DNA from: Minisyncoccota bacterium
GTDB lineage: Bacteria > Patescibacteriota > Minisyncoccia > Phycocordibacterales > PALSA-1337
Direction of reading: 5' to 3'
Assembly (NCBI GenBank): GCA_041666915.1
Contig: JBAYFZ010000001.1
Span: 286,335-350,334, forward strand
DNA: 64,000 nucleotides
The notes beneath the pieces were generated by a model. The model ran no database searches. It was not told the DNA's origin and was given only the letters and a program-made list of their open reading frames with translations. Positions 13,563-53,248 of the stretch are shown here, one piece after another (the first letter of the stretch is position 1; the number at the start of each line of letters is the position of its first letter). A program made the translations under genes and the position numbers.

Positions 13563-13590
13563 CCTAAACTTCGTGACACTACCATCTTCG
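13563..13590. repeat. att-like repeat copy A (tcctaaacttcgtgacactaccatcttc); reverse strand encodes DEDGSVTKFRI
   Basis: similarity to copies B, C, D and to the ychF C-terminus. Confidence 0.55.
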
Positions 13591-13610
13591 TCATATGTTA
13601 TGATACTAGT

Positions 13611-13862
13611 ATGAAATATTTCATATTCAGTATCGTAATTTTGATTAACATTGCGATCCACGCCCTATCTTCTGAAATTTCTGCCATCAGTCCTAATTTG
13701 TGGTTTATAATCCTTGTTCTGTTTTTAATCGGATATACTTACGCAGGGGTTCAATATATTCGACTTAAGAAAAGATACGCTGTCAGTATCATATTTTTTC
13801 TCTTGGCAATCTTTAACATCTTACCAATAATAGGATGGCTGGTTCTACGTTCTAATTTTTAG
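13611..13862 (+). CDS. small two-TM membrane protein (island remnant?)
   Basis: 83 aa, two hydrophobic helices; lies between att-like copies A and B. Confidence 0.3.
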   Translation: MKYFIFSIVILINIAIHALSSEISAISPNLWFIILVLFLIGYTYAGVQYIRLKKRYAVSIIFFLLAIFNILPIIGWLVLRSNF

Positions 13863-13863
13863 A

Positions 13864-13891
13864 TTTTAAACTCTATGACACTACCGTCTCC
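13864..13891. repeat. att-like repeat copy B (ttttaaactctatgacactaccgtctcc); reverse strand encodes GDGSVIEFKI*
   Basis: read directly. Confidence 0.6.
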
Positions 13892-14183
13892 ATAAAGTTG
13901 AAACCCCACCTCTGCTTTCGCTAGATGGTGGGGTTTTCCGTGTCGTTTTCGACCTACTCAGTGCTGTGTGCAATTTTTGCGCACGCAAGTGCTCCGAGAT
14001 AAGTGAACGCAACAAGGATGATTGTAAACCAGATAAACCCAGGCAAATCCGCCATTGTGGAGGACGGAACACCTTGATTCATCAGATGAACATGTATTGC
14101 TATAGGTCCAATCATAAGAACTCCTGGTTAAGGTTGAACTATATGGCACATTACCGTCTAATTTACGCTCTGTCCAGTTTCTT

Positions 14184-14216
14184 ATATCCTAAACTCTATG
14201 ACAGTACCATCTTCTC
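14184..14216. repeat. att-like repeat copy C (tatatcctaaactctatgacagtaccatcttct), candidate attL; reverse strand encodes EDGTVIEFRI*
   Basis: about 28/33 identical to copy D at 51842-51874. Confidence 0.65.
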
Positions 14217-14563
14217 AACACGAGGGCTATATTGTTAAAATAGCCCTATAAATCGGCGTAAACGCCAGTTTGCTCGTCTATTAAGCCCACAAATGCCCTT
14301 TTACGGCCTTAGTAGGCGAGCAAGCCTTTTTTGTTAAATTTTCAATTTGCTTACAACAAGGATTATACCAAGCGGTTGTTACATAGCAAGCTCCTTTGGC
14401 TTGTGTTTTCCCCACCTCACTTTTGCAGCCAAACGACCAATAGTCTGGTAGTGTTTTTTACCATACTTTTTCTTGGTCTTCTGACCGCCCTTTTTACCGA
14501 GCGCTTGTGCTGCCTTGTTCTTCACCAGGTAATTATACCAAGTGCTTCTTATTTCACAAAGGC

Positions 14564-15517
14564 CTATTTTCCTCTAAATTTACGATATCTTTGTTCAGCC
14601 TGTTTTCCATACATCATTGTGTAAACCATTGAGCTCTCAATACAGGAGTGACCGAGAATATTTGTGACGTCAGAGTTCGATCCTCCCTTTTCTATAATAT
14701 TTCTACCCATGTAATGTCTCATTGAGTGAGCATTCATATTCTTTTCAAGACCTGCTTTATTGGAATAGCCTCGAAGCATTTCACAAACACCGCTTTGTTT
14801 GAATCTGTATCCCCTAGTTTTGTTTGCACCAGAGTTATGGATTGATATAAATAATGCATTAGGATCACGCAGGACATTTCCACGCTTGAATCTTTCTCGT
14901 CTTTCAATCCATTTCTGAATCGCCTTGCTGGTTTCTTCAGTCCAGAAAATTTCTCGTAATGGTCTACGAGTTTTTGCCTTTTCAGTTTTAATAAGTGCTT
15001 TGTTGTTTACAAGATCCAAGTCATCCATATCAAGTGCCATAATTTCTCCGTTTCTAGCACCGGTATCCCAGAGCAATCTCACAATTGCTTCGTTTCTTAC
15101 ATTTCTAGGATCAGTATTCTGAGGAATGACACTGAGCAATTTTTTGTACTCCTCCTGAGTCGCAACTCGAGGTATCTTGTATTCCTTCTGAGGAATAGGT
15201 ATCAAGTTTTCGTTGAGGACCCTCCAACCTCTGAGGTTACAGAATTCGAAGAATTTCTTGTATGCCATGCATTTTGAAACGAAGCTATTATGCGACCATC
15301 CGATCTCTTTCATTAAATTCAAATATTCCATCATGTTATTTAACGTGATGTCTTCAATCTGTGGGTTACGCAAAAATAGGCAAAAAAGACGAAGGTCTTT
15401 GTCATTGCCTCTGGTAGTGGTACCGTTTATCTTAAACGTGCGCCAATTTGTAAATTCATCTATAGCATCTTTGAATAGCATATTAGTCAACCAAAAAGTC
15501 CACTCGATGCTAGTCAA
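14564..15517 (-). CDS. tyrosine-type site-specific integrase (phage integrase family)
   Basis: 317 aa; LWDTGARNGE (catalytic R), HSMRHYMG (H-x-x-R), GHSCIESSMVYT (catalytic Y). Confidence 0.9.
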   Translation of the reverse strand: MTSIEWTFWLTNMLFKDAIDEFTNWRTFKINGTTTRGNDKDLRLFCLFLRNPQIEDITLNNMMEYLNLMKEIGWSHNSFVSKCMAYKKFFEFCNLRGWRVLNENLIPIPQKEYKIPRVATQEEYKKLLSVIPQNTDPRNVRNEAIVRLLWDTGARNGEIMALDMDDLDLVNNKALIKTEKAKTRRPLREIFWTEETSKAIQKWIERRERFKRGNVLRDPNALFISIHNSGANKTRGYRFKQSGVCEMLRGYSNKAGLEKNMNAHSMRHYMGRNIIEKGGSNSDVTNILGHSCIESSMVYTMMYGKQAEQRYRKFRGK

Positions 15518-15880
15518 AGTGGACTTTTGGTGACGTCAGCTTCTTAATGAATTAATCGGCTTACGTCATTCCCAAGCTTGGGATACATACCCTTTCGGAT
15601 ATGCATTATCATCTTACTATCCCTACATGAATTAGCAAGATAAATGCTCAGGTCAAGTCCATTGCTAGCATCAGGCTGTTTCAATAGCCTAATCCCTCTC
15701 GGGACAATGGGTTCATATTCGGTTGTGCACTACATCCTAGTGTAGTGATTAGCTATTGTCAAGAAGGACTTTCTATTTTGTAGTGCTGTAAAATGAAAAT
15801 AGTCAAAATGTCAAGCAAAATAAGGGTATTTTGAACATAAAAAATAAAAGTCGCACCGTTTCTTAGGCGATGCGACAGTT

Positions 15881-16897
15881 TTATGCGATTCTTTCTCGCA
15901 TTTGTTCGAGGAAACTCACCACGCCCACATTCCGATACTGCGGAGTGGTCTTGTCACCCACATTTACAGGCATTGATACCCTAGGATACCTTCCCAGGAG
16001 CTCTCCTACCATGATTTCACGTCCCGTATCCCTTCCTATACGATCAAAGAGGCTAATCGCCATCTCTAGAAAGAAGGCGGATAACTCTCGAGCGTTGTCG
16101 GTAGGCAGACTTGTCCATTTCTCAATCATGCCGAATGGCAAGATATATGGAAATGCACAACTATGTCCTTCGACTGTCTGAATTGGTGCAAAGCTGTGAG
16201 CTTTAGGTTCACCAACTACACGTCCGCATCCTGGCATGAATGGAATAAGGTCTCGATCAGCGATCCATTCGACTAGATTCTCAAAGGCGTGAACAATTAC
16301 GAGCTCGCCTTGGAATGCTGGCTGAATGACAGTCCTTGCTCCGTTATCACAGAATCCAAGGATAACAGTTGCAATTTCAACACCTCGATTTTCAAGTTCC
16401 TTAAGAATATAAAGGCAAGTGTTACCCTTGAACACTCCTTCCTTAGCCAGAATTACTGGACGATAAGAAATCTTCCTAGCCAGCTCATCGAACTGACGAT
16501 CCAAATAATCAAATCCAGGACGGGGACCGTACCCGAGCATTTTTCCGTCCGTATCAAACAGTCGGTTAATGCTTAGGTTCAGTTTTTCATCACCGGAATT
16601 CAGGTCAGACATTTCGGAACATGTGACCAGGACTGCGTGCCGGTTGTTACCAGCAATACGACCATGAACTTGCTCCCAGATATTAATTCTGAGCTCATTC
16701 TTATCGATAGGACAAATCGTGACGTTTCCTAACGCTCTGACTACCCTTTCGAGAAGACTCTGGCGCAGTTGCTCAAACATCGGATCTTCTTGGCTTGGGA
16801 CCAGGAGACCCTTTGAGCGGAATGATTGAATACTGTTTGCTACGTCAAAGGAAACCACGCAGGTTCCCTGACCAAGTGCCGAATTGGCAGATTGCAT
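15881..16897 (-). CDS. hypothetical protein, first gene of the GC-rich block (possible degenerate PRTase-like fold)
   Basis: 338 aa; GC about 53 %; PVILAKEGVFKGNT loosely resembles a PRTase motif; no confident assignment. Confidence 0.45.
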   Translation of the reverse strand: MQSANSALGQGTCVVSFDVANSIQSFRSKGLLVPSQEDPMFEQLRQSLLERVVRALGNVTICPIDKNELRINIWEQVHGRIAGNNRHAVLVTCSEMSDLNSGDEKLNLSINRLFDTDGKMLGYGPRPGFDYLDRQFDELARKISYRPVILAKEGVFKGNTCLYILKELENRGVEIATVILGFCDNGARTVIQPAFQGELVIVHAFENLVEWIADRDLIPFMPGCGRVVGEPKAHSFAPIQTVEGHSCAFPYILPFGMIEKWTSLPTDNARELSAFFLEMAISLFDRIGRDTGREIMVGELLGRYPRVSMPVNVGDKTTPQYRNVGVVSFLEQMRERIA

Positions 16898-16985
16898 AGG
16901 AACCTCCTTTTTTATGGTTGTTTAAGTGACTACATTGAAAGAACACACCATGTCTAGTTTATATGAAATAGTAACAGAATACTAA

Positions 16986-17303
16986 TTATTTTTGCTCACC
17001 TTTCATTCTGTCGATCATCATTTTGTAGCCTCCACAACCTTCTTTCAGCCAACGATTAATTTTTGTGATCGTTACTGGAGACTCACCTGATTCTTCTTGT
17101 ATTTGAGAAAATGGAACACCTGCATCTAGTTTCTTTGCAACCTCCCAACGCATAGCAAATTCACGAAGATCTCTTTCACTCATAAGATCTCTGAAAAAAG
17201 CCTTGAGCTCGTCTTCATTCTTGAGCGACAAAAACACCTTGAGCAAGTCTGGAGACTTTTGCTCTAACTCAGACCATATTCCATTTTTTTCTTCATCTGT
17301 CAT
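16986..17303 (-). CDS. TrpR-like DNA-binding protein, YerC/YecD family
   Basis: 105 aa; LREFAMRWEVAKKLDAGVPFSQIQEESGESPVTITKINRWLK matches the YerC/YecD TrpR-like pattern. Confidence 0.6.
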   Translation of the reverse strand: MTDEEKNGIWSELEQKSPDLLKVFLSLKNEDELKAFFRDLMSERDLREFAMRWEVAKKLDAGVPFSQIQEESGESPVTITKINRWLKEGCGGYKMMIDRMKGEQK

Positions 17304-17387
17304 ATTTTTTACTATTATACCATAAAAAAGAGCGGTAACCTTGTTTCCAAAGTTACCGCCCGTGTGTCCATTCTATGGACCAAGGAA

Positions 17388-17705
17388 CTAATTACCGCGA
17401 ATCTTTGCGATCGCGAGGATCGTATCGCCGGATTCGACGATGTCATCGACACTGGCTTCCTGGCCGTTGCGTTGAATCTCGCAACGTTCCAAGTTTTTGA
17501 TGCCGATGACTGCGAAGAGTGCGCCAATCGTGATTTTCTTCGTGAGCGGGACCTCCTGGATTTCTCCAGGGATCTTGCCCACGCTCGCAATGGCGTCCTT
17601 CTGGATGACTGTGCAATCGGGGAGATTTGTCGTCTCGGGCCGATCCAACACTTCCACATGCGGCCGTTCAGCAGTCGCCGCCAACTGATTCATTCTGTTT
17701 TTCAC
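17388..17705 (-). CDS. ubiquitin-like beta-grasp protein (ThiS/MoaD-like) ending ..AKIRGN
   Basis: 105 aa; C-terminal IQRNGQEASVDDIVESGDTILAIAKIRG fits the ThiS/MoaD beta-grasp pattern; lies immediately downstream of the E1-like gene. Confidence 0.5.
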   Translation of the reverse strand: MKNRMNQLAATAERPHVEVLDRPETTNLPDCTVIQKDAIASVGKIPGEIQEVPLTKKITIGALFAVIGIKNLERCEIQRNGQEASVDDIVESGDTILAIAKIRGN

Positions 17706-17732
17706 TGTATTTTCCTTTCAAGGTTCAGAGGT

Positions 17733-18419
17733 TTAGTAGTTCTTGCTGAGAACGATCAGCGGCGAGAGCGAAACGATCGCCTCGTTCGCGAACTTTTTGT
17801 TATTCGCAAAGTTGATCATTGTGAACACCGCCATGCCAGCGAGAGTTGCCACTGTCGGAGCGATTGCTCGCCTCGTGCAGGGGCTTTCTTCCGCCTCAGC
17901 ATCAGAATACAACGTTTTTTCATACGCCGCAATCTGATTTGGCATTGCTGGTTTGATCGCATAAATGCGACCGCCTTCGGCTTCCATCCGTGTCTCAATC
18001 ATCAAGTCAACCTTGAGCTGATAGCGGACAGACGATTCCCAGATCGTCTTGCGGCTCTCCATTGTGTCGGTGAGCACGAAAACGATTCCTTTCAGCGATC
18101 CCTTTGTAAACTTCTTGGAGACCGCTTTGATCTTGATGCCGGTGCCGGCTTCGACCGCCTTAGCCAGCGCGTCGACCTTCTTTTTTCCGACATCCGCAAG
18201 TCCGAAGACCTGATTTGGCAGATTGTGATTCTCCACCTCATCGAAGTCATAGACCGTGATGTCTTTGCACCCCATCTTGGCCAAGAGCCAGACGATGTAG
18301 GAGCCGGTTGCACCGACGCCGATCACCGTGATTGGTTTCTTGAAGTTTGACGGGGCGAAGATGTCGAGCTGTCGCCAGTAGTCAGGTTCGCTTGTCGGCT
18401 TATTTTTTGCGGCCGCCAT
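17733..18419 (-). CDS. ThiF/MoeB/E1-like adenylyltransferase (Ubl-activating enzyme-like)
   Basis: 228 aa; Rossmann ITVIGVGATGSYIVWLLAKMG...DFDEVENHNLPNQ typical of E1-like enzymes. Confidence 0.85.
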   Translation of the reverse strand: MAAAKNKPTSEPDYWRQLDIFAPSNFKKPITVIGVGATGSYIVWLLAKMGCKDITVYDFDEVENHNLPNQVFGLADVGKKKVDALAKAVEAGTGIKIKAVSKKFTKGSLKGIVFVLTDTMESRKTIWESSVRYQLKVDLMIETRMEAEGGRIYAIKPAMPNQIAAYEKTLYSDAEAEESPCTRRAIAPTVATLAGMAVFTMINFANNKKFANEAIVSLSPLIVLSKNY

Positions 18420-19260
18420 ATCCCCCTCCTTTCGAATGGAATGAACCGTTCTTGACCTTGGCCTTGATCTCGTCGGCGATCGTCTTGCGACGGGTATCGT
18501 CTCCGAGGTGCATAAGCCAGGGGCAGTCGGTGATCTTCACCTTCTGCGTATAGTCGAAGAAATCGAAGACGCACTTGCCTCCTCGAGTGAAGATGCCGCG
18601 AATGAAGAACGGATTATGAGCGAAGAGCTCCATCTGTTCATCGTCCTGGCCCGACGGCTCGGTCATGTCTCCCGGGTGCAGATGCCCCCAGAAAAGCATG
18701 GAGTTGAGGACCGACTTGTTCGCGGGGTCCTGCTTCAGCATGTCCGTGTAGAACTTGCCGATGCTCCCCTGATCGAATTCGCAGTGCGCTCCGCTCACCT
18801 GTTGGTTGAAGAGGAACACTTTGCCGATGAGATACCTGTCGCCGTCCAGTTTTTGAACGGTGCCAAGCCACCCCACCTCGTCATTGCCCGCAGCTTCCAT
18901 GATGTAGTGCGTATCGGTGTACGCCTCGAGAGACAGAAGAATGGTCGGGATTTGCATCTCGGTCATCACTTCGATCTTCGCTTCCGCCTCATGCGGAACC
19001 AACGGCTTTATTGCTTCTTCGGCAAAGCCTGGACCGGTGTAGATGTCAGACTGATTTTTCACGTTTTGCTCCTTTCTTGGTTTGTTGAAGTTCGCACTCT
19101 CGGACTCCGAAGCCGCCGTTCCCTTCCAGGAACTGGATGACGTACTCCGGTTCTCCCTGTGCCCATTCTTCGGGAGGTTTGAGGCGGGTGATACGACAGC
19201 GTTTACCGTCGTTGCCGGTATACCCCGATGTGCCGCGATTCGTGTAAACACAAACCACAC
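18400..19260 (-). CDS. JAB/MPN (JAMM) metallopeptidase; true start may be internal
   Basis: 286 aa; E...HLHPGDMTEPSGQDD = E / HxH-x7-S-x2-D JAMM motif; 20-nt overlap with the E1 gene. Confidence 0.75.
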   Translation of the reverse strand: MWFVFTRIAAHRGIPATTVNAVVSPASNLPKNGHRENRSTSSSSWKGTAASESESANFNKPRKEQNVKNQSDIYTGPGFAEEAIKPLVPHEAEAKIEVMTEMQIPTILLSLEAYTDTHYIMEAAGNDEVGWLGTVQKLDGDRYLIGKVFLFNQQVSGAHCEFDQGSIGKFYTDMLKQDPANKSVLNSMLFWGHLHPGDMTEPSGQDDEQMELFAHNPFFIRGIFTRGGKCVFDFFDYTQKVKITDCPWLMHLGDDTRRKTIADEIKAKVKNGSFHSKGGGYGGRKK

Positions 19261-19271
19261 CCATCTGGTAT

Positions 19272-20177
19272 TTATGATTCGGCGTTTTCATTCCGCTTAC
19301 CTCCCTTCTTCTTTTTGGCAACTGGCCAGTTGAATATTTCCGAATACGGACGATACTGATCTGAGCACTCATAGCTCTTGAGGTACTGGATGCATACCGA
19401 TACAGCTGCAGCGTATTTGTGCTCCGCAATCATGTGAGGCAGAACCTCTTGGATATTGCCGAGACAAGGCACGCCGTACGCTTCAATATGTGGATGGTGA
19501 TAGCCATCCGGGGTGCGAGTAAGATTCATCATTCTCACCGCCCCATCCTTGCCGACAGAATCGATCGCGATCTTGAACCGGCCAATGTCATAATCAACCT
19601 GTCGGTAGTTTATGAAAATGGGACCGGTATAAGCCACGATTTTTTTGCCGACAACCTCTAGTCGCTCGATGTCTGGATGCTTCATCAGTTGCTCAAATTC
19701 GTCACCGAACCGAGCAAGTGAAGCTTCATCAGTCCCAGCAACAACTTGTAGCTGTTGCTGTTTTTCTTCCAAGCGACGAAGGAAACCTACTAGCTGTTCT
19801 TGGCATTTCTCAATACCTGCACGCAACTTCGTAGTCTCCTGCTTCAGCTCGCGCACACGCTCGGCCTTGCGGTTGTAGCCGCAGAGCTCCATGTATTTGC
19901 GCTTCAGAATGTCTTGTGAGTTCGCTTTGGGTTTCCCTTTGGCGCTCGTATGACCGTTTTGGCTGAAATGTCCCAGATAGACGCCTTGGTAATCCGTTCG
20001 AACTTTCGTGACTTGGCTTTTGGCCACGCCGAGAATCTCGCAGAGTTCACCAAGGTCTTCCATTTGAACACCGACACATGCGTCACCGTTGATACGGAGA
20101 CGAGTGGTCTTGAGTCCAGCGAGACTTTCGCCTCGTAGACTCCGTTGCGGGAACGCAACAATGGTTCCAGTCTTCAT
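19272..20177 (-). CDS. E2 (UBC)-like ubiquitin-conjugating enzyme with N-terminal HTH/coiled-coil extension
   Basis: 301 aa; HHPHIEAYGVPCLGNI resembles the E2 HPN-x-G-x-C-L active-site motif, preceded by a beta-rich segment. Confidence 0.55.
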   Translation of the reverse strand: MKTGTIVAFPQRSLRGESLAGLKTTRLRINGDACVGVQMEDLGELCEILGVAKSQVTKVRTDYQGVYLGHFSQNGHTSAKGKPKANSQDILKRKYMELCGYNRKAERVRELKQETTKLRAGIEKCQEQLVGFLRRLEEKQQQLQVVAGTDEASLARFGDEFEQLMKHPDIERLEVVGKKIVAYTGPIFINYRQVDYDIGRFKIAIDSVGKDGAVRMMNLTRTPDGYHHPHIEAYGVPCLGNIQEVLPHMIAEHKYAAAVSVCIQYLKSYECSDQYRPYSEIFNWPVAKKKKGGKRNENAES

Positions 20178-20212
20178 TATTTGACCTCTTGACTTTCTTG
20201 ACGTGGTTTTGA

Positions 20213-20455: not shown

Positions 20456-20590
20456 ATGACTTGCTCCTTTGCTGGATAAACCAGCGATTTCAATGACCTT
20501 GCGGCAACGCGCCGCGTGTTCCTAAGGCAATCTTTCAGCCTATGGAATCTGAGCACAACCTAACATAATTAATAGGTTGTGTCAATAATC

Positions 20591-21469: not shown

Positions 21470-21517
21470 TTCCTTTAATTAAAAGATAATACTACGAAAT
21501 AGAGGCGTTGTCCAGTT

Positions 21518-23517: not shown

Positions 23518-23521
23518 ATAT

Positions 23522-42909: not shown

Positions 42910-42935
42910 AAAATGTGAAAAAGTGTGTGCAATCA
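42910..42935 (-). promoter_or_regulatory. conserved 26-nt motif copy 3, overlapping the TerL stop codon and 23 nt upstream of the portal start
   Basis: identical 26-mer. Confidence 0.5.
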
Positions 42936-46420: not shown

Positions 46421-46424
46421 ATAT

Positions 46425-46832
46425 TTATATTTTTTCCATCCAACTGATCATGCTCGACTCATTGCATGCTCCGCCTTTTCCGTTGTCGTCGATGTATTCG
46501 TATGCAGGCTTGCCACTCTTTTGTGCGAGTATTCCGATGACAAGCCTCTCATCGCCTTTTCGATTTCTGCATATTGTGCCGAATGTGTAGGTCATGCGCT
46601 GATCAACATTCCTTTTTTCCCAGTGATGCCGGAGGGCTGCGAAGAATTCGCCCTGGACCGTTTCAAGGTATGCAGTGATAGCTTCTTTATGTTCGGATTT
46701 GAAAATAGGAAGCAGGCTATGAGCTCCAATGATCCACGCTCCGACAAAGTCGGGACGTGCTGAAAGAAACCGAGCCGACAAGCTCAATGGATTCGGTTCT
46801 TGTTTTTTTATTTTATTTTTATCTTTAGTCAT
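46425..46832 (-). CDS. hypothetical phage protein
   Basis: 135 aa ORF. Confidence 0.4.
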   Translation of the reverse strand: MTKDKNKIKKQEPNPLSLSARFLSARPDFVGAWIIGAHSLLPIFKSEHKEAITAYLETVQGEFFAALRHHWEKRNVDQRMTYTFGTICRNRKGDERLVIGILAQKSGKPAYEYIDDNGKGGACNESSMISWMEKI

Positions 46833-46837
46833 GTTTA

Positions 46838-47257
46838 TTAAATTTGTTGATGATTAATCGAATCTGATTCAAGGATCTTTCCGCAAAAGCTACATCTTTT
46901 TATCCATCGAATATGCTGACAATTTTTGTGACGTTGTTGCTCTGCTAAGTTGCGAATGTACTCGTACGAACCCTCGACCAACTTTTTCTTTGTTTGTTTT
47001 GTATCTCTGTAAGTAATATGGAGATACTTTGTCTTCTTTGCCTTGCTGTAAACCTTTGCAACTTTGTCAGGCAGAACAGTTTTAACTTTTACTTTTCTCA
47101 CCCATCCTTTCGATCTGACGTGGTAGTGAATCGTACTGTGGTATATCCGATAGAACACCGATATCCATTTAATTTTCCACCCATAATCTTCAAAAGATTT
47201 ACGGATCTCTTTTAACTTTTGGGGAGATAGTTTGTAGCATCGATGTTTTGCTTTCAT
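46838..47257 (-). CDS. hypothetical Cys/His-rich (zinc-ribbon-like) protein
   Basis: 139 aa; C-terminal CQHIRWIKRCSFCGK. Confidence 0.35.
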   Translation of the reverse strand: MKAKHRCYKLSPQKLKEIRKSFEDYGWKIKWISVFYRIYHSTIHYHVRSKGWVRKVKVKTVLPDKVAKVYSKAKKTKYLHITYRDTKQTKKKLVEGSYEYIRNLAEQQRHKNCQHIRWIKRCSFCGKILESDSINHQQI

Positions 47258-48393
47258 AGGAGTTTTTGGACAATCGCTTGGACCGTATTAACGGTCACAG
47301 CATTGCCGAGACACTTGTACCTTTGCGTGTCGCTTATTCCCTCAGTCCATCCGTCAGGAAATCCTTGGAGGCGTTCACATTCCGTTGGTGTGAGTCTGCG
47401 GATCTTTATCTTCTTGGACCAGACTATCGGTGTCTGACCTCCGCCCATTCCTGCCGCCTGTGTGACTGTCGGAGAAATGCCATCTTTTCGTGGTTTCTGG
47501 TGGGCTTGCAGTCCGCCCACTGCGTACAAGCCTGTCTTTGCCCCGAGTCCTCCTGCCTGGCTTGCGATCGTGGTTGAAATTCCTTTCGGATCGTAGACTC
47601 GGTTTCCCTGGCTACCGCCTATGATTTGACGTGGCGATCTTTTACCAACATAAGTTCCGTTCGAGTCTGCGGTAACACGTGTCGTGATGGTTGGTAGGAC
47701 AATATCCTCGCTGTTGTTTTCGGTGAAAGGAAATACTTTCGGTCGGGTCGTGCCTCTAAGATGTCCAACAATGAACACGCGCTCCCGATTCTGAGGGACT
47801 CCGAAATTCTTAGAGTTAAGCACCTGCCACTGAACGTCGTACCCCAGTTTAGTAAGCGTGGCGATGATGATCTTGAAAGTACTGCCATTGTCATGAGATA
47901 GCAGTCCTTTGACGTTTTCCAGAAGGAATAGTCTTGGCTTTTTACTTCGGAGAATGCGTGCAATGTCAAAAAACAGCGTTCCTCGTGTATCTTTAAAGCC
48001 CTTCCTTTTTCCAGCAATTGAGAAAGCTTGGCACGGAAATCCTCCGACCAGTAGATCGAAGTCGGGTAGCTTATTTGGTTTGATTTTTGTGATGTCGTCA
48101 TAATTTTTATGTTCTGGGAAATGCCTCTGGTAGATTTCGACTGCGTACTTGTCGATTTCCGAGTAACCCGCACAAGTAAGCGGTTCTTGTCGTGAGCTGC
48201 TGCGGTGATCGTGTTTGCCAGATCGTCCTCTCTCGGGACCAATGCTTTGAGATTTCTTGTATCCTTTACCACACCCAGTCTTCTCAAGCGCTTGGCTTCT
48301 TCTGTTCTTCTTTCCGTTAGCTGTTTCCACATATGCGTTGTGTATTCCGAGCTCGAATCCGCCAATGCCGGAGAATAAGCTTAGATACTTCAT
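47254..48393 (-). CDS. DNA (cytosine-5)-methyltransferase
   Basis: 379 aa; FSGIGG (motif I), GGFPCQAFS (PCQ), ENVKGL (ENV). Confidence 0.85.
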   Translation of the reverse strand: MKYLSLFSGIGGFELGIHNAYVETANGKKNRRSQALEKTGCGKGYKKSQSIGPERGRSGKHDHRSSSRQEPLTCAGYSEIDKYAVEIYQRHFPEHKNYDDITKIKPNKLPDFDLLVGGFPCQAFSIAGKRKGFKDTRGTLFFDIARILRSKKPRLFLLENVKGLLSHDNGSTFKIIIATLTKLGYDVQWQVLNSKNFGVPQNRERVFIVGHLRGTTRPKVFPFTENNSEDIVLPTITTRVTADSNGTYVGKRSPRQIIGGSQGNRVYDPKGISTTIASQAGGLGAKTGLYAVGGLQAHQKPRKDGISPTVTQAAGMGGGQTPIVWSKKIKIRRLTPTECERLQGFPDGWTEGISDTQRYKCLGNAVTVNTVQAIVQKLL

Positions 48394-48809
48394 CAGGCAT
48401 TAATGTTGATACTTATTTCTACTCGACCTTTTGAATCTGGCGCATAATCAGACTCGAAACTACCATCTAGAAATTTATCGTTTTTGAATAGAGCGTCAGC
48501 GATACCCTTGAAGACATTGTCAGGGTCGGCGTGCAGTCCATTCATCCAGTAAATCTTTATATCCATTCGTGCTTTTTCTGATGCAGTAGTTGTTAGTGGT
48601 TGATCGTCTAGGAGAATTTGTTTACCATCGCACATTACAAATTCTGGGTAGTCTTTATAGAAACATCTACGGACATAACTTTTCCATGCGTGGTATTTCT
48701 TTGCTCCTGGAAGCCACAAAGCTCTACCAACTACACGAACGTAAGGGACCGGATTACCATAAATATCTTCTGGATTCCCTTTTATAGTGAATTGAATTGT
48801 TTTCTTCAT
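48393..48809 (-). CDS. RusA-like Holliday junction resolvase
   Basis: 138 aa; HADPDNVFKGIADAL resembles the RusA D-x-D-N catalytic motif. Confidence 0.55.
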   Translation of the reverse strand: MKKTIQFTIKGNPEDIYGNPVPYVRVVGRALWLPGAKKYHAWKSYVRRCFYKDYPEFVMCDGKQILLDDQPLTTTASEKARMDIKIYWMNGLHADPDNVFKGIADALFKNDKFLDGSFESDYAPDSKGRVEISININA

Positions 48810-48813
48810 TTTT

Positions 48814-49374
48814 TTAATAGTTATTTTTATTAATGCTCATGTGTCTTGTGATTTCCCCTATGCGTTCCTTGAAGTTATCCACAGGATGCCTAATACTAGG
48901 TTTCTCTTTTTTCTCTAGGTTTTGTGTGTTAAATCTTTTAACCAGTTTTGGTAAAGAGCGTTTACCACTTTTGGTTAACTCTCTTAACTGGTTAATTTCG
49001 TTTACTACTTTATCCACATCCATATGCAGGTTTAATTTGTAGCGATTTCCTTTGGACCGTTGCTGTACAGAAATAACTCCAACCTTGATAAGATTTTGAA
49101 GAGCGGAGTTTACTGAGGGTCTAGATAATCCAGTACCAAAATCTAGGCGTTTACCTTGGCTAGTCTTGATACCATTTTCAAACTGAGAAAAACTTATATT
49201 GTCTTCGTCTTTATGGAATCCGAAAGTGCGCCTGCATATGTAAAGTAAACATCGAGCTTCCGCCTCAGAGATTCGAGGAAGAACGAGATCCAAAATAATA
49301 TTTGGAATCTGCGAACTGTTTGGTATTAAATTTTGTTTTTGGTCGTCCATAGTTTTTTGAAGAGAGAGAAGCAT
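48814..49374 (-). CDS. replication initiator / replisome-organiser-like winged-helix protein
   Basis: 186 aa, position upstream of RusA and downstream of the ATPase. Confidence 0.4.
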   Translation of the reverse strand: MLLSLQKTMDDQKQNLIPNSSQIPNIILDLVLPRISEAEARCLLYICRRTFGFHKDEDNISFSQFENGIKTSQGKRLDFGTGLSRPSVNSALQNLIKVGVISVQQRSKGNRYKLNLHMDVDKVVNEINQLRELTKSGKRSLPKLVKRFNTQNLEKKEKPSIRHPVDNFKERIGEITRHMSINKNNY

Positions 49375-49478
49375 CGATTGCTCGATGTTTCTTCTCTGGT
49401 TATTGAGGGCTTAGCCCCCGATCTCAGCCCTCATACCACTGCGATCAGGGCTGAGTCAGTGGCCAAGCTACTTAGTTT

Positions 49479-50666
49479 TTACTTGCCACTCTTTTCTCCA
49501 GCCTTTGCTGTTGATTTCTTTGGCTTCTCGACCTTTGAATCTCTGAGCTCCTTATCAAACTTCTGGTCAGGCGTTAGTTCAGGCGGAAGTTCGTTTTTTG
49601 TTTCGGCAATCTTCTTTTGAACAAATTCCTGAACCCTTGCATATCCATCTTCTAGAACATCTGGTCGCATTGCTTCAATCGCTGACCAGCTTCTTGTCTG
49701 GAAGGCATACTCAAGTGCATCAGTTTTGTTTTTCTTTTCCTGAGCACCACTACTTGGCCAGACTGATACTAGATATCCCTCTATCTCCTCAAGCCATCGT
49801 TTTCTCTCAAGGACCCATTTACGCTTGTCTTCCTCGGTTCGGATCAGCTCTCCGGCATCCCTCTCCGTGGGGCTAAAACGGGCTATTACGGGGTTTTTGA
49901 TGACTGCCTCGATTGCTGGTGCGAAGTCCTCGTAGGTTGGGTTTTTGAAGACCTTTCCATCAAGGAGATTTCCTCGCCCTTTGAGGACCGTTGCTTGTCG
50001 CCAAACCTCACGCTTTTTGCTTTGAATGAGTTCGTGTCGTTCCATAAGTACCAAGACATCGAATTCGTATGCTGCATTCTTTTCCGCTTGCATCTTTACT
50101 CCTGTCTTAGTAAATTCTTTGCGACCATCCTCATCTACTTCCTGCTCCATTCGGTCCGACACGCGCCCTGTGGCGATGATGTGGATCGGCGACTGGACCA
50201 TTGGGATCGAGAAGTTTCTATTCCAGTCGGACTTGATTGCCATCCAGTCCTGGATCTGAAATGTTTGGCGGTTGAGCTTGCGCTTGTACGCCTCTTGGAA
50301 ATCCATCCAGATGTGAGTGATACTGTCGATTACCATCACATCGGAATAACCTTCCGTGCAGAGCTTCATTGCTGTTACCAAATCAGCTAGTGAATGTGTC
50401 TCTCTGACCATTGCAGTAATCCCATGTTCCTCAAAAAGAGGCACAAGAAATTTTGCAGCTTTCTCGGTATCAATGAGCACTACTGGTTTCTTACTTCCGA
50501 TCTTCTTGTGAAGACCGATTGCTACTAATGCGGCAGACCAACTTTTACCTGTACCTGGCTCTCCTTCAAATGCCGCCTTGAAGTAGGGCTTTGTGTTTCC
50601 GATGGCCGTGAAGAAGTTTTCTTCTTTTGTTGCGATCGGAACGTGACTTCGTTCTTGTGTTTGCAT
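49479..50666 (-). CDS. RecA-fold P-loop ATPase (replicative helicase/recombinase-like)
   Basis: 395 aa; Walker A GEPGTGKS, Walker B VMVIDS. Confidence 0.65.
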   Translation of the reverse strand: MQTQERSHVPIATKEENFFTAIGNTKPYFKAAFEGEPGTGKSWSAALVAIGLHKKIGSKKPVVLIDTEKAAKFLVPLFEEHGITAMVRETHSLADLVTAMKLCTEGYSDVMVIDSITHIWMDFQEAYKRKLNRQTFQIQDWMAIKSDWNRNFSIPMVQSPIHIIATGRVSDRMEQEVDEDGRKEFTKTGVKMQAEKNAAYEFDVLVLMERHELIQSKKREVWRQATVLKGRGNLLDGKVFKNPTYEDFAPAIEAVIKNPVIARFSPTERDAGELIRTEEDKRKWVLERKRWLEEIEGYLVSVWPSSGAQEKKNKTDALEYAFQTRSWSAIEAMRPDVLEDGYARVQEFVQKKIAETKNELPPELTPDQKFDKELRDSKVEKPKKSTAKAGEKSGK

Positions 50667-50740
50667 AATTTTTGCTTGACTCGACGAAGGGTTTCTTGAT
50701 ACTATGTATCTGTCATAAGGACTCCCTCGTCGGGGGTCTT

Positions 50741-51037
50741 TTATTTTTTAAATAACTTAGTAATTCTTTTGTCAGCCTCTGCTAACATCGTTTTGTTAAT
50801 CTGACTCATGATTTCTGTGAACAATCCGTCACGAATAATTCCGTGTGCCATTACGATTGCTTTCTCGTTTTCGGCATCGAGATTGGTCAGCTTTCCCATG
50901 ATGTCTCCGGTGAATTCCGCTACTTCGTCGAGCATGTGAGCGAGGATTTGTTCATCAACAATTGCTGGTGCTTTATCCTTCACTAACTTCACCGCCTCCC
51001 TCGACAAAGTTTTCATTTTTTCTTGTGATGGTGTCAT
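50741..51037 (-). CDS. hypothetical phage early protein
   Basis: 98 aa ORF; 65-nt overlap with the upstream ORF, start uncertain. Confidence 0.35.
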   Translation of the reverse strand: MTPSQEKMKTLSREAVKLVKDKAPAIVDEQILAHMLDEVAEFTGDIMGKLTNLDAENEKAIVMAHGIIRDGLFTEIMSQINKTMLAEADKRITKLFKK

Positions 51038-51287
51038 TTAATGATTCTTGGATTCGTTGCTTTCTGAGTTCCTCTTTTTCCTTGAGCTGTATTTGTCTCT
51101 CTCGGCTAAAGGGCACATTCTTCTTCAATCGAATCTCTTTAGGTTGATAATCGATATCGACTAGATCACCTATGATCAATCGATATTTTTCTGTGAGCCA
51201 TTTACCTTCGAGTATTAAGGCTGGTATGCCATATCTTCGATAAGTAACGACTCGAGTGGTTCTTAGTTTTTGTTTCATTGCTAGCAT
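50973..51287 (-). CDS. hypothetical small DNA-binding-like protein (possible AbrB/MazE-like fold)
   Basis: 104 aa; YRRYGIPALILEGKWL...GDLVDIDY pattern. Confidence 0.35.
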   Translation of the reverse strand: MLAMKQKLRTTRVVTYRRYGIPALILEGKWLTEKYRLIIGDLVDIDYQPKEIRLKKNVPFSRERQIQLKEKEELRKQRIQESLNDTITRKNENFVEGGGEVSEG

Positions 51288-51331
51288 CTGCCATGTACCT
51301 TGGCTGATCCCTTTTGGGACAATGATTTTGA

Positions 51332-51694
51332 TTACCTACACTTCTTTCGAATATCGAGGGATTGAGGATAGAGTCCTTTTTCCTTAAACAAGAGATCTAC
51401 CAAGTGAGCGTCACCTTTTATCCCGACATGCCACTGGTTTACCTCGTGGATCGGACGATATTCTTTGTAGTCGTATATGGTTAGAACCATTGGGCGTTTC
51501 TTGTTTGTCGACTTGAAAGCCCATTCAACCCGAGTCTTTTCATCAGAGGACTGCCATTCTCCCTCTTGAGTACGGTCATGAGGCATCCCCAACTTATCCA
51601 CAAGCTCGGGATACGAGATGTGCAAGTATCCATGAAAGCTTGAGTGGATCGTGTCTCTGTTTGTGGCTGGTTTGAACTTCGATGTAGATTTCAT
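51332..51694 (-). CDS. hypothetical phage protein (first gene inside the right prophage end)
   Basis: 120 aa ORF. Confidence 0.4.
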   Translation of the reverse strand: MKSTSKFKPATNRDTIHSSFHGYLHISYPELVDKLGMPHDRTQEGEWQSSDEKTRVEWAFKSTNKKRPMVLTIYDYKEYRPIHEVNQWHVGIKGDAHLVDLLFKEKGLYPQSLDIRKKCR

Positions 51695-51841
51695 AATCGT
51701 TTAATTTTGCTAATAAATTTTCGACCTTTTTAGACGAGTTACTGATATGCAAAAAGCACACAGTTTTTCTGTGCGCTTACGTTCGATTTATTTGTTTTTA
51801 GCCTAGTTTTTCCTCACTTTGGCCTTAGAAGATGGTGGTGT

Positions 51842-51874
51842 TATATCTTAAACTCTATGAGACCTCCATCTTCT
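51842..51874. repeat. att-like repeat copy D (tatatcttaaactctatgagacctccatcttct), candidate attR; reverse strand encodes EDGGLIEFKI*
   Basis: about 28/33 identical to copy C. Confidence 0.65.
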
Positions 51875-51930
51875 AAACTTGACTATCTAGCATATTAATG
51901 CTACTATTTCAGGTAGAAAGGAGGTGTGAC

Positions 51931-52041
51931 ATGCAACTTACCTACAAACATGGTGCGAAGTTTTGTCTCGTGATGATAGTCCTGCTTGGTATAGCAGCAA
52001 TCGTCATCATGGCAACACCTTGGGTCAAACTCATTTGGTGA
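51931..52041 (+). CDS. 36-aa hydrophobic peptide with strong RBS (AAGGAGGTGTGAC-ATG)
   Basis: translation MQLTYKHGAKFCLVMIVLLGIAAIVIMATPWVKLIW; GGAGG 7 nt upstream; sits between att-like copy D and ychF. Confidence 0.35.
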   Translation: MQLTYKHGAKFCLVMIVLLGIAAIVIMATPWVKLIW

Positions 52042-52099
52042 AGCCAGTCAGATCCTAAAACCGTATGGTTCGCCCAGCGGTTTTCGTTTTAGAAAAAGT

Positions 52100-53248
52100 C
52101 TAGATCTTAAACTCCACAACATCCCCGTCCTTGACCACATACTCCTTCCCTTCAGTTCTGAGTAAACCTCTCTCTCTAGCTATAGCGTATGAACCCGCAT
52201 TGAGTAATGTATCCCATTCAATAACCTCAGCACGAACAAACTTATCTTTGAAATCAGTATGAATAGCCGTACCAGCTAGAGGCGCAGTCCAACCTTTTTT
52301 GATTGTCCAAGCCCTACTCTCATCTTCTCCAGTCGTGAAATAGGTTATAAGTCCAAGGATTTTATAACCATTGGTAATGAGTGCGTCTATACCATCCTCC
52401 TTCGCTAAGTCTTCTGTGGATGAATTCCCCTTACCAGTCAATGCTTGTCGCATCTCTTTTTTCTCTTTATCATCAAAATCTTTTAATTCATGTTCAATAC
52501 CAGCGTCAACGATAACAAAACCAGAATCATTATCTTTCAAAAACTTCATCAACCTATTCCACCTCTCATCTTTTAATTCATCCAAATTCTTTGAACCCGC
52601 TTTTTTATTTAATACATACAAGAAAGGCTTTGCTGTAATCAAACAAAGTTGTTTCAAAAATGGTTCTTCGTACTCATCAGGTTTGATGGTTGAAGCCAAA
52701 TTCCCCGCTTCCAGAGCTGGAAGTAATTTCTCAATAAGTCCCATTTCAATAATAGCTTCCTTTTTGCCAGCCTTTACTTCTTTACCAAGAGTATTTTTGC
52801 GTTTAGTTACAGTCTGAATATCAGCTAAAACCAATTCCAGATTTATAACTTCAATATCTTTGAGTGGATCAATCTTCCCGTCAACATGAATGACATTATC
52901 ATCTTCAAAAATCCTGACGACTTGTGCGATGGCGTCCGTCTCACGGATATGCGACAAAAATTGATTGCCTAATCCTTCACCTTCTGAAGCACCTTTGACA
53001 AGACCTGCAATATCCACGAATTCAACCGCTGCAGGTACAGTCTTTGCTGACTTAGAGAAAGCTGAGAGTTTCCAAAGACGTTCATCTGGCACTGCCACGA
53101 CGCCCACCGAAGGATCTATTGTACAGAATGGGTAATTCTCTGCTGGCACACTCTTCTTTGTAAGCGCATTGAAAAGCGTTGATTTGCCAACGTTTGGGAG
53201 ACCTACGATGCCGATGGATAAGGACATGGGATTTAGTTTACAGTGCAA
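52100..53248 (-). CDS. ychF: ribosome-binding ATPase YchF (Obg-family GTPase with C-terminal TGS domain)
   Basis: 382 aa; G1 [16 protein letters not shown]-terminal ..[15 protein letters not shown]. Confidence 0.9.

What the first reader, a model, noticed from the sequence alone, without database searches (positions are those of the whole stretch)
13563..52135. Array of att-like repeats that mimic the ychF 3' end; tandem integration hotspot with remnants
Four imperfect ~30-bp direct repeats lie at 13563-13590, 13864-13891, 14184-14216 and 51842-51874. On the reverse strand each encodes a surrogate YchF C-terminus (DEDGSVTKFRI.., GDGSVIEFKI*, EDGTVIEFRI*, EDGGLIEFKI*). The real ychF gene (52100-53248) ends ..DGDVVEFKI* and shares the terminal GAGTTTAAGAT with copy D. 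Copies C and D bracket the 37.7 kb prophage, with the integrase next to C. Copies A-B and B-C enclose about 300-bp remnants, one with an 83-aa two-TM ORF. D-to-ychF encloses a 225-bp piece with a 36-aa RBS-equipped ORF. This looks like repeated site-specific integration into the 3' end of a protein-coding gene, ychF rather than a tRNA, with older elements decayed to remnants.
Basis: seen in the sequence. Interest (0 to 1): 0.6.

Follow-up and report, generated by a model that had tools for sequence, protein, structure and literature searches.

The report
Phage attachment-site array at ychF end
A 37.6-kb prophage of an uncultured ultra-small (Patescibacteria/CPR) bacterium sits at the last codons of the GTPase gene ychF, next to three tiny integrase-less gene modules bounded by further copies of the same attachment site: a new example of a well-known way that mobile DNA enters genomes.

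Summary
Four ~33-nt direct repeats (A 13557-13589, B 13859-13891, C 14182-14214, D 51841-51873) resemble the ychF 3' end (Y 52100-52132). A matrix built from such sites hits only these five places in the window.

C and D bracket a complete prophage with a Xer-like tyrosine integrase next to C. Every integrase at least 68% identical that I examined has one such site 300-450 nt downstream, four of them on contigs in the unintegrated attP arrangement. Two other genomes carry related prophages fused directly to an intact ychF.

The site is a dyad: two arms around AGTTTAAG, where the crossover is inferred. Integration therefore replaces only the last codons. The "surrogate C-termini" are mostly the integrase's left-arm binding site, not coding sequence.

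The three small intervals (259, 323, 302 bp) are compact one-gene modules, not pseudogene debris. They end in a hairpin plus phage-type left arm, as similar modules in other genomes do. They fit integrase-less, att-flanked modules (CIME- or SCC-like accretion) better than randomly decayed prophages, but mobility is untested.

Verdict: new member of a known kind (new target gene, new host phylum), moderate interest. An integron-like cassette exchange is not excluded.

The parts
52100..53227 (-). ychF (redox-regulated ATPase YchF), intact. Its last 33 nt (52100-52132) are att site Y: host left arm GGGGATGTTGTGG, core AGTTTAAG, right arm ATCTAGACTTTTT.
   Evidence: TIGR00092 420 bits; Pfam PF06071 covers residues 300-382; matrix score 37.5-38.2 bits across the three matrix versions.
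51874..52099 (.). Module 1 (Y to D, 259 bp stop-to-stop). It holds a weak hairpin after ychF, a sigma-70-like promoter TTGACT-17-TACTAT at 51879-51907 (+), an RBS and a 36-aa hydrophobic ORF at 51931-52041 (+). No integrase.
   Evidence: The roughly 100 nt next to D resemble the sequence upstream of the att copy in viral contigs L086/L087.
51826..51876 (-). att site D (33-mer 51841-51873) with its dyad: AGAAGATGGaGG ... CCaCCATCTTCT around AGTTTAAG. The right arm ATATAACACCACC is the phage-type arm. This is the ychF-proximal prophage junction (attL-like).
   Evidence: 47.2 bits; 15 of 19 arm positions complementary, centre AGTT|TAAG; fold z = -4.2; aligns with L222 attP from the site rightwards.
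14215..51840 (-). Prophage, about 37.6 kb. On the - strand, from D to C: terminator 51745-51775; 120-aa ORF 51332-51694; Sak4-like/AAA_24 49479-50666; replication O-like 48814-49374; DNA methylases; terminase large subunit 42933-44621; SU10-type portal 40862-42886; major head protein 37387-38589; tail genes; endolysin/amidase 27231-27836; cargo/defence genes at about 15.9-26.9 kb; integrase.
   Evidence: GC is 0.42-0.50 over the structural and replication region (about 27-51 kb) against about 0.34-0.42 in the flanks; the 21-27 kb cargo stretch is host-like at 0.32-0.36. The same prophage at the same place occurs in a second sample (L002).
14564..15517 (-). Xer-like tyrosine integrase, with a SAM-like N-terminal domain and a catalytic domain and no separate arm-binding domain detected. 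It is followed by a 48-aa basic ORF (14379-14525) and a hairpin (about 14222-14246) before site C.
   Evidence: PF00589, 93 bits. (full-length alignments to XerA/XerC/XerD, all below family cut-offs). (more than 440 relatives, the named ones from Patescibacteria). (P arm 73% identical to phage contig L222).
14182..14214 (-). att site C, the integrase-side prophage junction (attR-like). Phage left arm GGTACTGTCATAG, core AGTTTAGG, non-phage right arm ATATAAGAAACTG.
   Evidence: 47.5 bits; homology with L222 attP ends at ...GATATAA.
13892..14181 (-). Module 2 (C to B, 323 bp). It holds an RBS, a 53-aa hydrophobic ORF (13954-14115, -) and a strong hairpin at 13900-13937 directly before site B.
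   Evidence: fold z = -5.5. Hairpin plus left arm are homologous to the sequence before copy c1 of L224.
13859..13891 (-). att site B: left arm GGTAGTGTCATAG, core AGTTTAAA, right arm ATCTAAAAATTAG.
   Evidence: (44.1 bits).
13590..13858 (+). Module 3 (B to A, 302 bp), almost filled by an 83-aa ORF with two hydrophobic stretches (13611-13862, +). Its stop overlaps site B.
   Evidence: no Pfam family.
13557..13589 (-). att site A, the most decayed copy (EDGSVTKFRIK, no stop) and the distal end of the recognisable array.
   Evidence: (38.2 bits).
12580..13556 (-). Possible further module without a surviving att copy: a 177-aa ORF (12622-13155, -) followed by a hairpin (12580-12614). The hairpin is 94% identical over 36 nt to the one preceding att copy c1 in L224.
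   Evidence: z = -3.2. No matrix hit here, so membership is uncertain.

Best explanation
The window holds a temperate phage of a Patescibacteria (Paceibacteria-like) host. It integrated through its own Xer-like tyrosine recombinase at an attachment site formed by the last codons of ychF.

The functional site is a simple, lox/dif-like dyad: a left arm, a central AGTTTA[AG]G, and a right arm. In attP the right arm (ATATAACACCACCATCT) is the inverted repeat of the left arm (AGATGGTGGTGnnATAn). In attB the left arm is the ychF coding sequence ...GAT GGN GAT GTN ATH G.

Strand exchange in or next to the central 8 bp (inferred) leaves ychF intact. Only about the last Ile codon and the stop become phage-derived, and a phage terminator follows. 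The phage's ychF-like left arm moves to the far junction, next to the integrase. That is why each copy looks like a YchF C-terminus.

D (module left arm + phage right arm) and C (phage left arm + non-phage right arm) are the two junctions of the 37.6-kb prophage. Y, B and A delimit three integrase-less modules of 259-323 bp. Each carries one small, mostly hydrophobic ORF. Module 2 ends in a strong hairpin plus left arm of the kind seen in phage P arms and in other genomes' modules; all three end in a phage-family left arm.

The modules are most likely att-flanked units left or captured during earlier recombination by the same integrase family (accretion). In principle a resident phage integrase could excise or co-mobilise them.

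Shown here: the repeats, the prophage, attP in relatives, attL at ychF in other genomes, the dyad, and the shared module ends. Inferred: the exact crossover position, integrase binding to the arms, and any mobility of the modules.
For: Repeats.

Prophage: (terminase, portal, head, endolysin, replication genes, integrase).

attP in relatives: all seven contexts with an integrase at least 68% identical have one matrix hit 300-450 nt downstream of the integrase (window, L084, L221, L222, L223, L239, L240). In L221-L223 the site is followed by phage early genes, which is the unintegrated arrangement. Integrases at 56-57% identity have no such site.

Junction mapping: L222 attP aligns with the window C flank on the left and the D flank on the right. 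The switch lies inside the 33-mer.

Independent attL: in L226-228 and L230-233 a full-length ychF (72-74% identical protein) ends ...TTTAAGATATAA/G, followed at once by CACTACCATCTTCT and the 120-aa, AAA_24 and rep_O genes of related prophages that are about 75% identical in DNA.

Empty sites: about 30 Patescibacteria species have a single ychF end and no extra copy. In L005, ychF lies about 1.9 kb from leuS, against 40.6 kb in the window.

Dyad: 13-15 of 19 arm positions are complementary, with the best centre exactly at AGTT|TAAG, in 8 of 10 sites that have a phage right arm. Sites without one give 5-8 of 19. The arms differ in a matched way between phages: GGCACCG/CGGTCCC, GGTGGTG/CACCACC, GGGGATG/CAACCCC.

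Element origin of the copies: the L176 copy is 33/34 identical to window D although the two ychF genes are only 71% identical in DNA. The L005 copy matches L222 attP.

Modules: shared hairpin plus left-arm ends across genomes with different cargo. A second array of 5-6 copies lies next to a related prophage in L224.
Against: No read-level or experimental evidence for excision, a circular form or an empty site of this particular prophage.

The crossover position is inferred from symmetry and arm patterns only. In attL of L226 and L230 the central 8-mer differs from the family consensus (AATTTAAG, AGTTCAAG). That fits exchange slightly to the right of the centre, or phages with matching cores.

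The order of events in the array cannot be reconstructed. Module 1 may have inserted after the phage, or the phage may have entered a pre-existing copy.

Module 1 resembles the sequence upstream of the att copy in viral contigs L086/L087. It might therefore travel with the phage rather than being a separate event.

In L224 the array lies next to a related prophage but no ychF is found within 6 kb, so the site is not always attached to ychF.

The dyad could also serve as an RNA 3' stem-loop for ychF.
Confidence: 0.82

Rival explanations
1. One reading: each small interval is the randomly decayed remnant of a full-size prophage that once integrated at ychF. Nothing about the intervals is organised or mobile.
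For: The left arms at their distal ends are of the phage attP family, and module 2 also ends in a hairpin as phage P arms do. Phage P arms do carry a small ORF between the integrase and attP: 48 aa in the window, 70 aa in L084, 62 aa in L223. Module sizes in L224 are broad: 141, 248, 355 and 1118 bp.
Against: No pseudogene fragments of phage genes were found. Each interval is a compact unit: promoter or RBS, one intact small ORF and, in module 2, a hairpin. Seven intervals in five genomes fall between 259 and 352 bp. Their ychF-proximal ends lack the conserved phage right arm CACCACCATCT, which an internal deletion should leave behind. The same distal ends are joined to different cargo in different genomes.
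Confidence: 0.3
2. Integron-like reading: the modules are independent gene cassettes. A phage-encoded Xer-like integrase excises them as small circles and inserts them at any att copy, including a phage attP. ychF then serves as a cassette platform and phages exchange cassettes.
For: A simple dyad site and a Xer-like integrase with no arm-binding domain detected suggest that any two direct copies could recombine. One-gene modules with conserved ends recur with different cargo in the window, L005, L009, L022, L176 and L224. Module 1 resembles the DNA upstream of the att copy in L086/L087.
Against: No phage contig in attP form has two copies flanking a module. No circle junctions or positional polymorphism were seen. 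ORF orientation is mixed and the modules have their own promoters, unlike integron cassettes. The integrase scores 52.7 bits against the integron-integrase model, whose cut-off is 265. Only a few arrays are known.
Confidence: 0.25
3. The repeats are host sequence: local tandem duplications of the ychF terminator region or a regulatory RNA element, unrelated to the prophage.
For: Four related genomes have ychF plus one extra copy and no integrase within 6 kb, or within the 0.7 kb available for L176. The D dyad folds well as RNA (z = -4.2).
Against: The copies resemble one another and phage attP sites more than the resident ychF (EDG[GTS].IEF against KDGDV.EF). The L176 copy is 33/34 identical to window D across hosts whose ychF DNA differs by 29%. 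The copies lie exactly at the prophage junctions, and the site is present next to the integrase on unintegrated phage contigs. No Rfam family matches the region.
Confidence: 0.03

Closest known systems
Phage 21 and e14 integrating into the 3' end of icd in E. coli. From my own knowledge; not checked in a paper here.
   Same: A tyrosine integrase targets the 3' end of a housekeeping protein gene. The element carries a look-alike of the gene's end, so the gene stays functional after integration. An imperfect duplicate of the gene end is left at the far junction.
   Different: There the phage-borne segment replaces a substantial coding stretch and is translated. Here exchange is inferred in the last three codons, so almost none of the look-alike is translated. 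The target gene (ychF), the host phylum (Patescibacteria) and the Xer-like integrase with a simple dyad site also differ.
SCCmec and SCC composite islands at the 3' end of rlmH (orfX) in staphylococci. From my own knowledge.
   Same: The attachment site lies in the last codons of a conserved housekeeping gene. Tandem arrays of elements and small pseudo-elements are separated by repeated copies of the integration-site sequence. Elements without recombinase genes sit beside complete ones.
   Different: SCC elements use large serine recombinases (Ccr) and are not phages. Here the agent is a tyrosine recombinase on a tailed phage, and the modules are much smaller (0.14-1.1 kb).
ICESt1/ICESt3 and CIMEs (cis-mobilisable elements) at the 3' end of fda in Streptococcus thermophilus: the accretion-mobilisation model. 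From my own knowledge.
   Same: Integrase-less elements flanked by att sites are accreted in tandem with an integrase-bearing element at the 3' end of a protein gene. That is structurally what Y-D, C-B and B-A are.
   Different: CIMEs are several kb and derive from conjugative elements, and their cis-mobilisation has been shown by experiment. Here mobility is untested and the partner is a phage.
Xer/dif recombination and elements that exploit it (IMEX such as CTX phage; pdif modules on Acinetobacter plasmids). From my own knowledge.
   Same: The recombinase aligns over its full length with XerA/XerC/XerD. The site is a short dyad with a central spacer. Small modules bounded by repeated recombinase sites recall pdif modules.
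   Different: The recombinase is phage-encoded, not the host XerCD. The site is in a gene end rather than at the terminus (GC skew is negative in 59 of 64 one-kb bins, with no lasting sign change). The arms are longer (13-19 nt) around 8 bp rather than 11-6-11.
Other published uses of ychF as a landmark for mobile elements: a pneumococcal prophage with attB upstream of ychF (PMC6375853, PMC8637289), and pipolins with large serine recombinases integrated at ychF (PMC11551731).
   Same: ychF is a recurrent neighbour or target of integrative elements.
   Different: The pneumococcal site lies in the promoter region between dnaN/DUF951 and ychF, not in the 3' coding end. The pipolins use serine recombinases in Actinomycetota. 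My three full-text searches found no report of tyrosine-integrase integration into the ychF 3' end, and none in Patescibacteria.

Membership tests
Temperate phage integrated by a tyrosine recombinase at the 3' end of a protein gene | Tyrosine recombinase gene at one end of the element, next to an att copy | tested here: met
   PF00589 scores 93 bits. The integrase stop is 348 nt from site C.
Temperate phage integrated by a tyrosine recombinase at the 3' end of a protein gene | Complete phage gene set between the two att copies | tested here: met
   Terminase large subunit, SU10 portal, major head protein, endolysin, replication O-like and Sak4-like genes.
Temperate phage integrated by a tyrosine recombinase at the 3' end of a protein gene | Related unintegrated genomes carry the site as attP, and attP equals one flank of each junction | tested here: met
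   L221-L223 have integrase, one att copy, then early genes; L084 has integrase then a dyad att copy near the contig end. L222 aligns with the C left flank and the D right flank.
Temperate phage integrated by a tyrosine recombinase at the 3' end of a protein gene | Unoccupied target in related genomes, and the target gene stays intact after integration | tested here: met
   About 30 species have a single ychF end. ychF in the window is full length. Clean ychF|phage junctions occur in L226 and L230.
Temperate phage integrated by a tyrosine recombinase at the 3' end of a protein gene | Excision to a circle and reconstitution of attB for this very prophage | not testable with these tools
   No read data. 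L003 ends 57 nt after ychF and is uninformative.
Accretion arrays with integrase-less att-flanked elements (CIME / SCC-like) | Elements without a recombinase, bounded by att copies in direct orientation, in tandem with an integrase-bearing element | tested here: met
   Y-D, C-B and B-A contain no recombinase and are bounded by matrix hits of 38-47 bits, all on the - strand.
Accretion arrays with integrase-less att-flanked elements (CIME / SCC-like) | Mobilisation of the small elements by the neighbouring element's integrase | not testable with these tools
   Only indirect evidence: shared module ends with different cargo in other genomes.
Integron | IntI-type integrase (with the extra IntI-specific domain) beside attI and a cassette promoter | tested here: not met
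   TIGR02249 scores 52.7 bits against a cut-off of 265, and PRK15417 scores 25 against 435. The integrase lies inside a prophage, not at the head of the array.
Integron | attC sites: cassette-specific imperfect palindromes with R''/L''-L'/R' boxes; cassettes mostly promoterless and co-oriented | tested here: not met
   The copies are direct repeats of one target sequence. Only the sites with phage right arms are dyads. ORF orientation is mixed, and one module has its own promoter-like site.
Xer/dif site or IMEX | Use of host XerCD at the chromosomal dif site in the terminus region | tested here: not met
   The element encodes its own recombinase. GC skew is negative in 59 of 64 one-kb bins with no lasting sign change. 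XerC/XerD model scores (112-114 bits) are far below the cut-offs of about 330.

The most novel reading that the evidence does not exclude
The ychF end in these Patescibacteria is a cassette platform. Short one-gene modules (0.14-1.1 kb) each end in a hairpin plus att left arm. Phage-encoded Xer-like integrases acting on a simple lox-like site excise, capture and swap them between chromosomes and phage genomes. This would be an integron-like gene-shuffling system run by temperate phages in a phylum where mobile-element biology is almost unknown.
Probability: 0.25. Interest if true: 0.7.

Novelty: new member of a known kind. Interest (0 to 1): 0.4.

Why it matters
Prophages and their integration chemistry are poorly documented for Patescibacteria/CPR, a large group of tiny, mostly uncultured bacteria. 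This locus gives a concrete phage family that can be searched for by sequence. It has a defined attP, a defined attB (the last codons of ychF), a dyad site and a Xer-like integrase.

That has three uses. It links uncultured phages to CPR hosts. It helps in finding prophage boundaries in metagenome-assembled genomes, where contigs often break at such sites. It offers a compact recombinase/site pair that could become a genetic tool for organisms that currently have none.

The small att-flanked modules are candidates for lysogeny-associated accessory genes (function inferred only), and they give a testable case of accretion or cassette exchange. None of this overturns current understanding, because integration into the 3' ends of protein genes and tandem accretion are both established.

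Tried and rejected
1. Metagenome scan for two copies 281-341 nt apart. Only L176 was relevant, so no census of arrays was possible.

2. Viral-contig scan with a degenerate att pattern. It found three contigs only, so IMG/VR holds few of these phages.

3. Viral-contig search with the 120-aa ORF. It returned only distant hits of 31-44% identity and missed L086; not useful.

4. Exact look-up of the 83-aa module protein. It is not on record, so its distribution could not be traced.

5. Integrases at 56-57% identity (P0033, P0041). They have no ychF-type site nearby, so ychF targeting was seen only among the closer integrases examined (at least 68% identical), not the wider Patescibacteria Xer-like family.

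6. dif-site idea. Rejected: GC skew is negative in 59 of 64 one-kb bins with no lasting sign change, and the recombinase is phage-borne.

7. Known RNA family in the modules or the dyad. None found in Rfam.

8. Module cargo. None of the 36-, 53-, 83- and 177-aa ORFs matches a Pfam family.

9. Homology between the modules themselves. None beyond the att copies and hairpins, so they are not tandem duplicates of one another.

10. Similarity of the C right arm to the native ychF downstream sequence of L020 (45 nt at 87%). Noted but too short to support capture of host DNA.

Full report
**1. The observation**

The repeat finder returns a four-copy family at 13557-13594 (A), 13859-13896 (B), 14182-14219 (C) and 51841-51878 (D), at 76-84% identity over 38 nt. 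A five-copy family adds the end of ychF at 52101-52129 (alignment).

Read on the reverse strand and aligned at the stop codon, the 33-mers translate as follows:

| Site | Translation |
|---|---|
| Y | [10 protein letters not shown] |
| D | EDGGLIEFKI* |
| C | EDGTVIEFRI* |
| B | GDGSVIEFKI* |
| A | EDGSVTKFRIK |

ychF is genuine and complete. NCBIfam TIGR00092 scores 420 bits against a cut-off of 279, and the Pfam YchF C-terminal domain covers residues 300-382.

I built a position weight matrix from the copies. It hits only these five places in the 64-kb window, even at a lax threshold. In about 0.8 Mb of other ychF loci, both strands, it hits nothing except ychF ends and three extra copies.

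**2. Host and prophage**

The flanking genes and the closest YchF relatives place the window in Patescibacteria. The best matches are MAGs labelled Saccharibacteria, Taylorbacteria and Paceibacteria, at 60-81% YchF identity. The window matches a 450-kb ENA metagenome contig (L001). A second sample (L002) has the same arrangement at 100% identity.

Between C and D lie about 37.6 kb, with GC of 0.42-0.50 over the structural and replication region against about 0.34-0.42 in the flanks. The genes are as follows:
- a tyrosine integrase (14564-15517, -);
- a cargo block with an E1-like ThiF protein, PDC-S18, a DUF2326/LmuB-like ATPase and a DpnII restriction-modification system;
- endolysin and tail genes;
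- major head protein, SU10-type portal and terminase large subunit;
- two DNA methylases, a replication O-like protein and a Sak4-like/AAA_24 protein.

This is a complete-looking tailed prophage.

**3. The site belongs to the phage family**

The integrase has more than 440 relatives; the few that carry a source name are from Patescibacteria. I examined every context I could afford, with these results:
- All seven contexts with an integrase at least 68% identical have exactly one matrix hit 300-450 nt downstream of the integrase. These are the window, L084, L221, L222, L223, L239 and L240.
- In L221-L223 the site is followed by phage early genes (DnaA_C/RusA, or AAA_24/SSB). That is the arrangement expected of an unintegrated genome carrying attP.
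- Integrases at 56-57% identity have no such site.
- The phage contig closest in integrase (L222, 94% over a partial protein) aligns with the window's C flank on the left, through the 33-mer, and then with the D flank on the right. C diverges immediately after ...GATATAA.

So attP equals C-left plus D-right, and the junction lies inside the repeat.

**4. The site is ychF in other genomes too**

I searched for homologues of the 120-aa ORF that follows D and looked up their contigs.
- In two unrelated sample sets (L226-228 and L230-233), a full-length ychF (72-74% protein identity to the window's) ends ...TTTAAGATATAA/G. It runs straight into CACTACCATCTTCT, the 120-aa ORF, AAA_24 and rep_O of prophages about 75% identical in DNA. 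These are clean attL junctions at ychF.
- About 30 other Patescibacteria species have a single ychF end with no extra copy.
- In L005, ychF lies about 1.9 kb from leuS, against 40.6 kb in the window.

**5. Anatomy of the site and inferred mechanism**

I laid 25 sites side by side. Each splits into a left arm, an almost invariant AGTTTA[AG]G, and a right arm.
- Every site whose right side is phage DNA has the right arm ATATA[AG]CA[CA]NNCC-ATCT. This is the inverted repeat of the left arm.
- For sites with a phage right arm, 13-15 of 19 arm positions are complementary. The best symmetry centre falls exactly at AGTT|TAAG in 8 of 10 such sites. Sites without a phage right arm give 5-8 of 19.
- The arms differ between phages in a matched way: GGCACCG/CGGTCCC, GGTGGTG/CACCACC, GGGGATG/CAACCCC.
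- The integrase aligns over its full length with XerA, XerC and XerD models, below their cut-offs, and no separate arm-binding domain was detected.

I therefore infer a simple lox/dif-like site, with exchange in or beside the central 8 bp. On that model integration keeps the whole ychF reading frame. It swaps only about ATATAA (Ile plus stop) and the downstream terminator (51745-51775) for phage sequence.

The ychF-like left arm of attP is needed because the integrase must bind the same sequence in attB. It ends up at the integrase-side junction and is not translated. The copies are not joined to any ychF body, and the L084 attP even has an internal stop. In L240 and L084, weak similarity to about 30 YchF codons survives. 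That suggests the arm descends from a captured gene end.

**6. The small intervals**

Y-D, C-B and B-A measure 259, 323 and 302 bp and contain no integrase and no recognisable gene fragments. Each is a compact unit.
- Module 1 has a sigma-70-like promoter, an RBS and a 36-aa hydrophobic ORF.
- Module 2 has an RBS, a 53-aa hydrophobic ORF and a strong hairpin (z = -5.5).
- Module 3 is filled by an 83-aa ORF.

Similar single modules of 318-352 bp follow ychF in L005, L009, L022 and L176, without any integrase in the available downstream sequence. L224 has five or six copies delimiting modules of 141-1118 bp beside a related prophage.

The distal ends of modules recur across genomes with different cargo.
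- The hairpin plus left arm GGTAGTGTCAT occurs in window B and in L224 c1.
- The left arm GGAGGTCTCATAG occurs in window D, in L176 (33/34 identical, although the two ychF genes are only 71% identical in DNA) and in L224 c4.
- The left arm GGTGGTGCGAT occurs in L005 and in the L222 attP.

The proximal ends never carry the phage right arm. These features fit integrase-less, att-flanked modules accreted at the site (as with CIMEs or SCC composites) better than random decay of whole prophages. I have no evidence that they move, and the order of events in the array cannot be recovered. The similarity of module 1 to the DNA upstream of the att copy in L086/L087 leaves open that a module can travel with a phage.

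**7. Comparison with what is known**

Integration of a tyrosine-recombinase phage into the 3' end of a protein gene, with a look-alike of the gene end on the element, is classical (phage 21 and e14 at icd). So are tandem arrays at such sites (SCC at rlmH; ICESt/CIME at fda). I state these from my own knowledge.

ychF itself has been reported as a neighbour or target in two settings:
- for a pneumococcal prophage whose attB lies upstream of the gene (PMC6375853, PMC8637289);
- for pipolins with serine recombinases (PMC11551731).

My three full-text searches found no report of the ychF 3' end as a tyrosine-integrase site, and none for Patescibacteria. The locus fails the defining tests for an integron and for a Xer/dif element.

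**8. Verdict**

It is a new member of a known kind: a new target gene, a new host phylum and a well-defined dyad site.

Two corrections apply. The repeats are recombinase-site arms rather than spare protein ends. The small intervals are organised modules rather than demonstrable debris.

Interest is moderate (0.4). The most novel reading still open is an integron-like cassette exchange run by phage integrases at ychF, which I put at about 0.25.

Noticed in passing
window 11438-11495 and 12525-12582 (RhuM gene 11515-12537, -): A perfect 58-nt direct repeat flanks a 1,087-bp segment carrying a RhuM-family gene (Pfam PF13310, 354 bits). The repeat duplicates the leuS leader, start codon and first four codons (MKKT), so RhuM and LeuRS begin identically. 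It looks like a recent insertion or duplication at the 5' end of leuS, separate from the ychF array.
   Followed up: partly
window 8457-11450 (-), LeuRS residues 421-537: The leucyl-tRNA synthetase carries an inserted NUDIX hydrolase domain after the editing domain (PF00293, 41 bits). The L005 orthologue shows a Nudix box (ELREETGY) at the corresponding place in its translation.
   Followed up: partly
window 15881-26879 (-), inside the prophage: A cargo block lies between the integrase and the lysis genes, with mixed GC (0.50-0.55 at 18-20 kb, 0.32-0.36 at 21-27 kb). It holds a TrpR-like protein, an E1-like ThiF protein (PADLOC E1-E2 models) with three unassigned neighbours, PDC-S18, a DUF2326/PDC-M68B/LmuB-like ATPase, and a DpnII restriction enzyme with two methylases. 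The TrpR, 333-aa protein and integrase order recurs beside a 56%-identical integrase in L236-238.
   Followed up: partly
window 34727-34770, 39612-39655, 42892-42935: A 44-nt repeat ending AAAAATGTGAAAAAGTGTGTGCAATCA lies in the intergenic gaps next to the start codons of three prophage structural-gene blocks (tail, head, terminase). It is possibly a phage late promoter or regulator site (family D3).
   Followed up: no
L224 3390-5852 (ERZ15185090 NODE_3, 569 kb): Five clear att copies and one decayed one lie upstream of a related prophage. The modules include a TrmB-like regulator and a 68-aa ORF behind a consensus-like promoter. There is no ychF within 6 kb: UvrA, a 124-aa ORF and an 86-aa ORF precede the array.
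   Followed up: partly
L240 4321-4419; L084 4276-4353: In two phage attP regions, weak similarity to YchF extends over about 30 C-terminal codons (for example AYAEAQEIGKLR against [12 protein letters not shown]). This hints that the attP left arm began as a captured piece of ychF.
   Followed up: partly
L088-L207 (metagenome contigs, mostly the Ga0075108/9, Ga0208768, Ga0208413 and Ga0222648 sample series): The two-copy pattern scan was dominated by an unrelated family of repeats about 330 nt apart that end ...GAGTTTAGGGTNTAR (EFRV*). One contig has up to four per 3.4 kb (L126). It has no relation to ychF and its nature is unknown.
   Followed up: no
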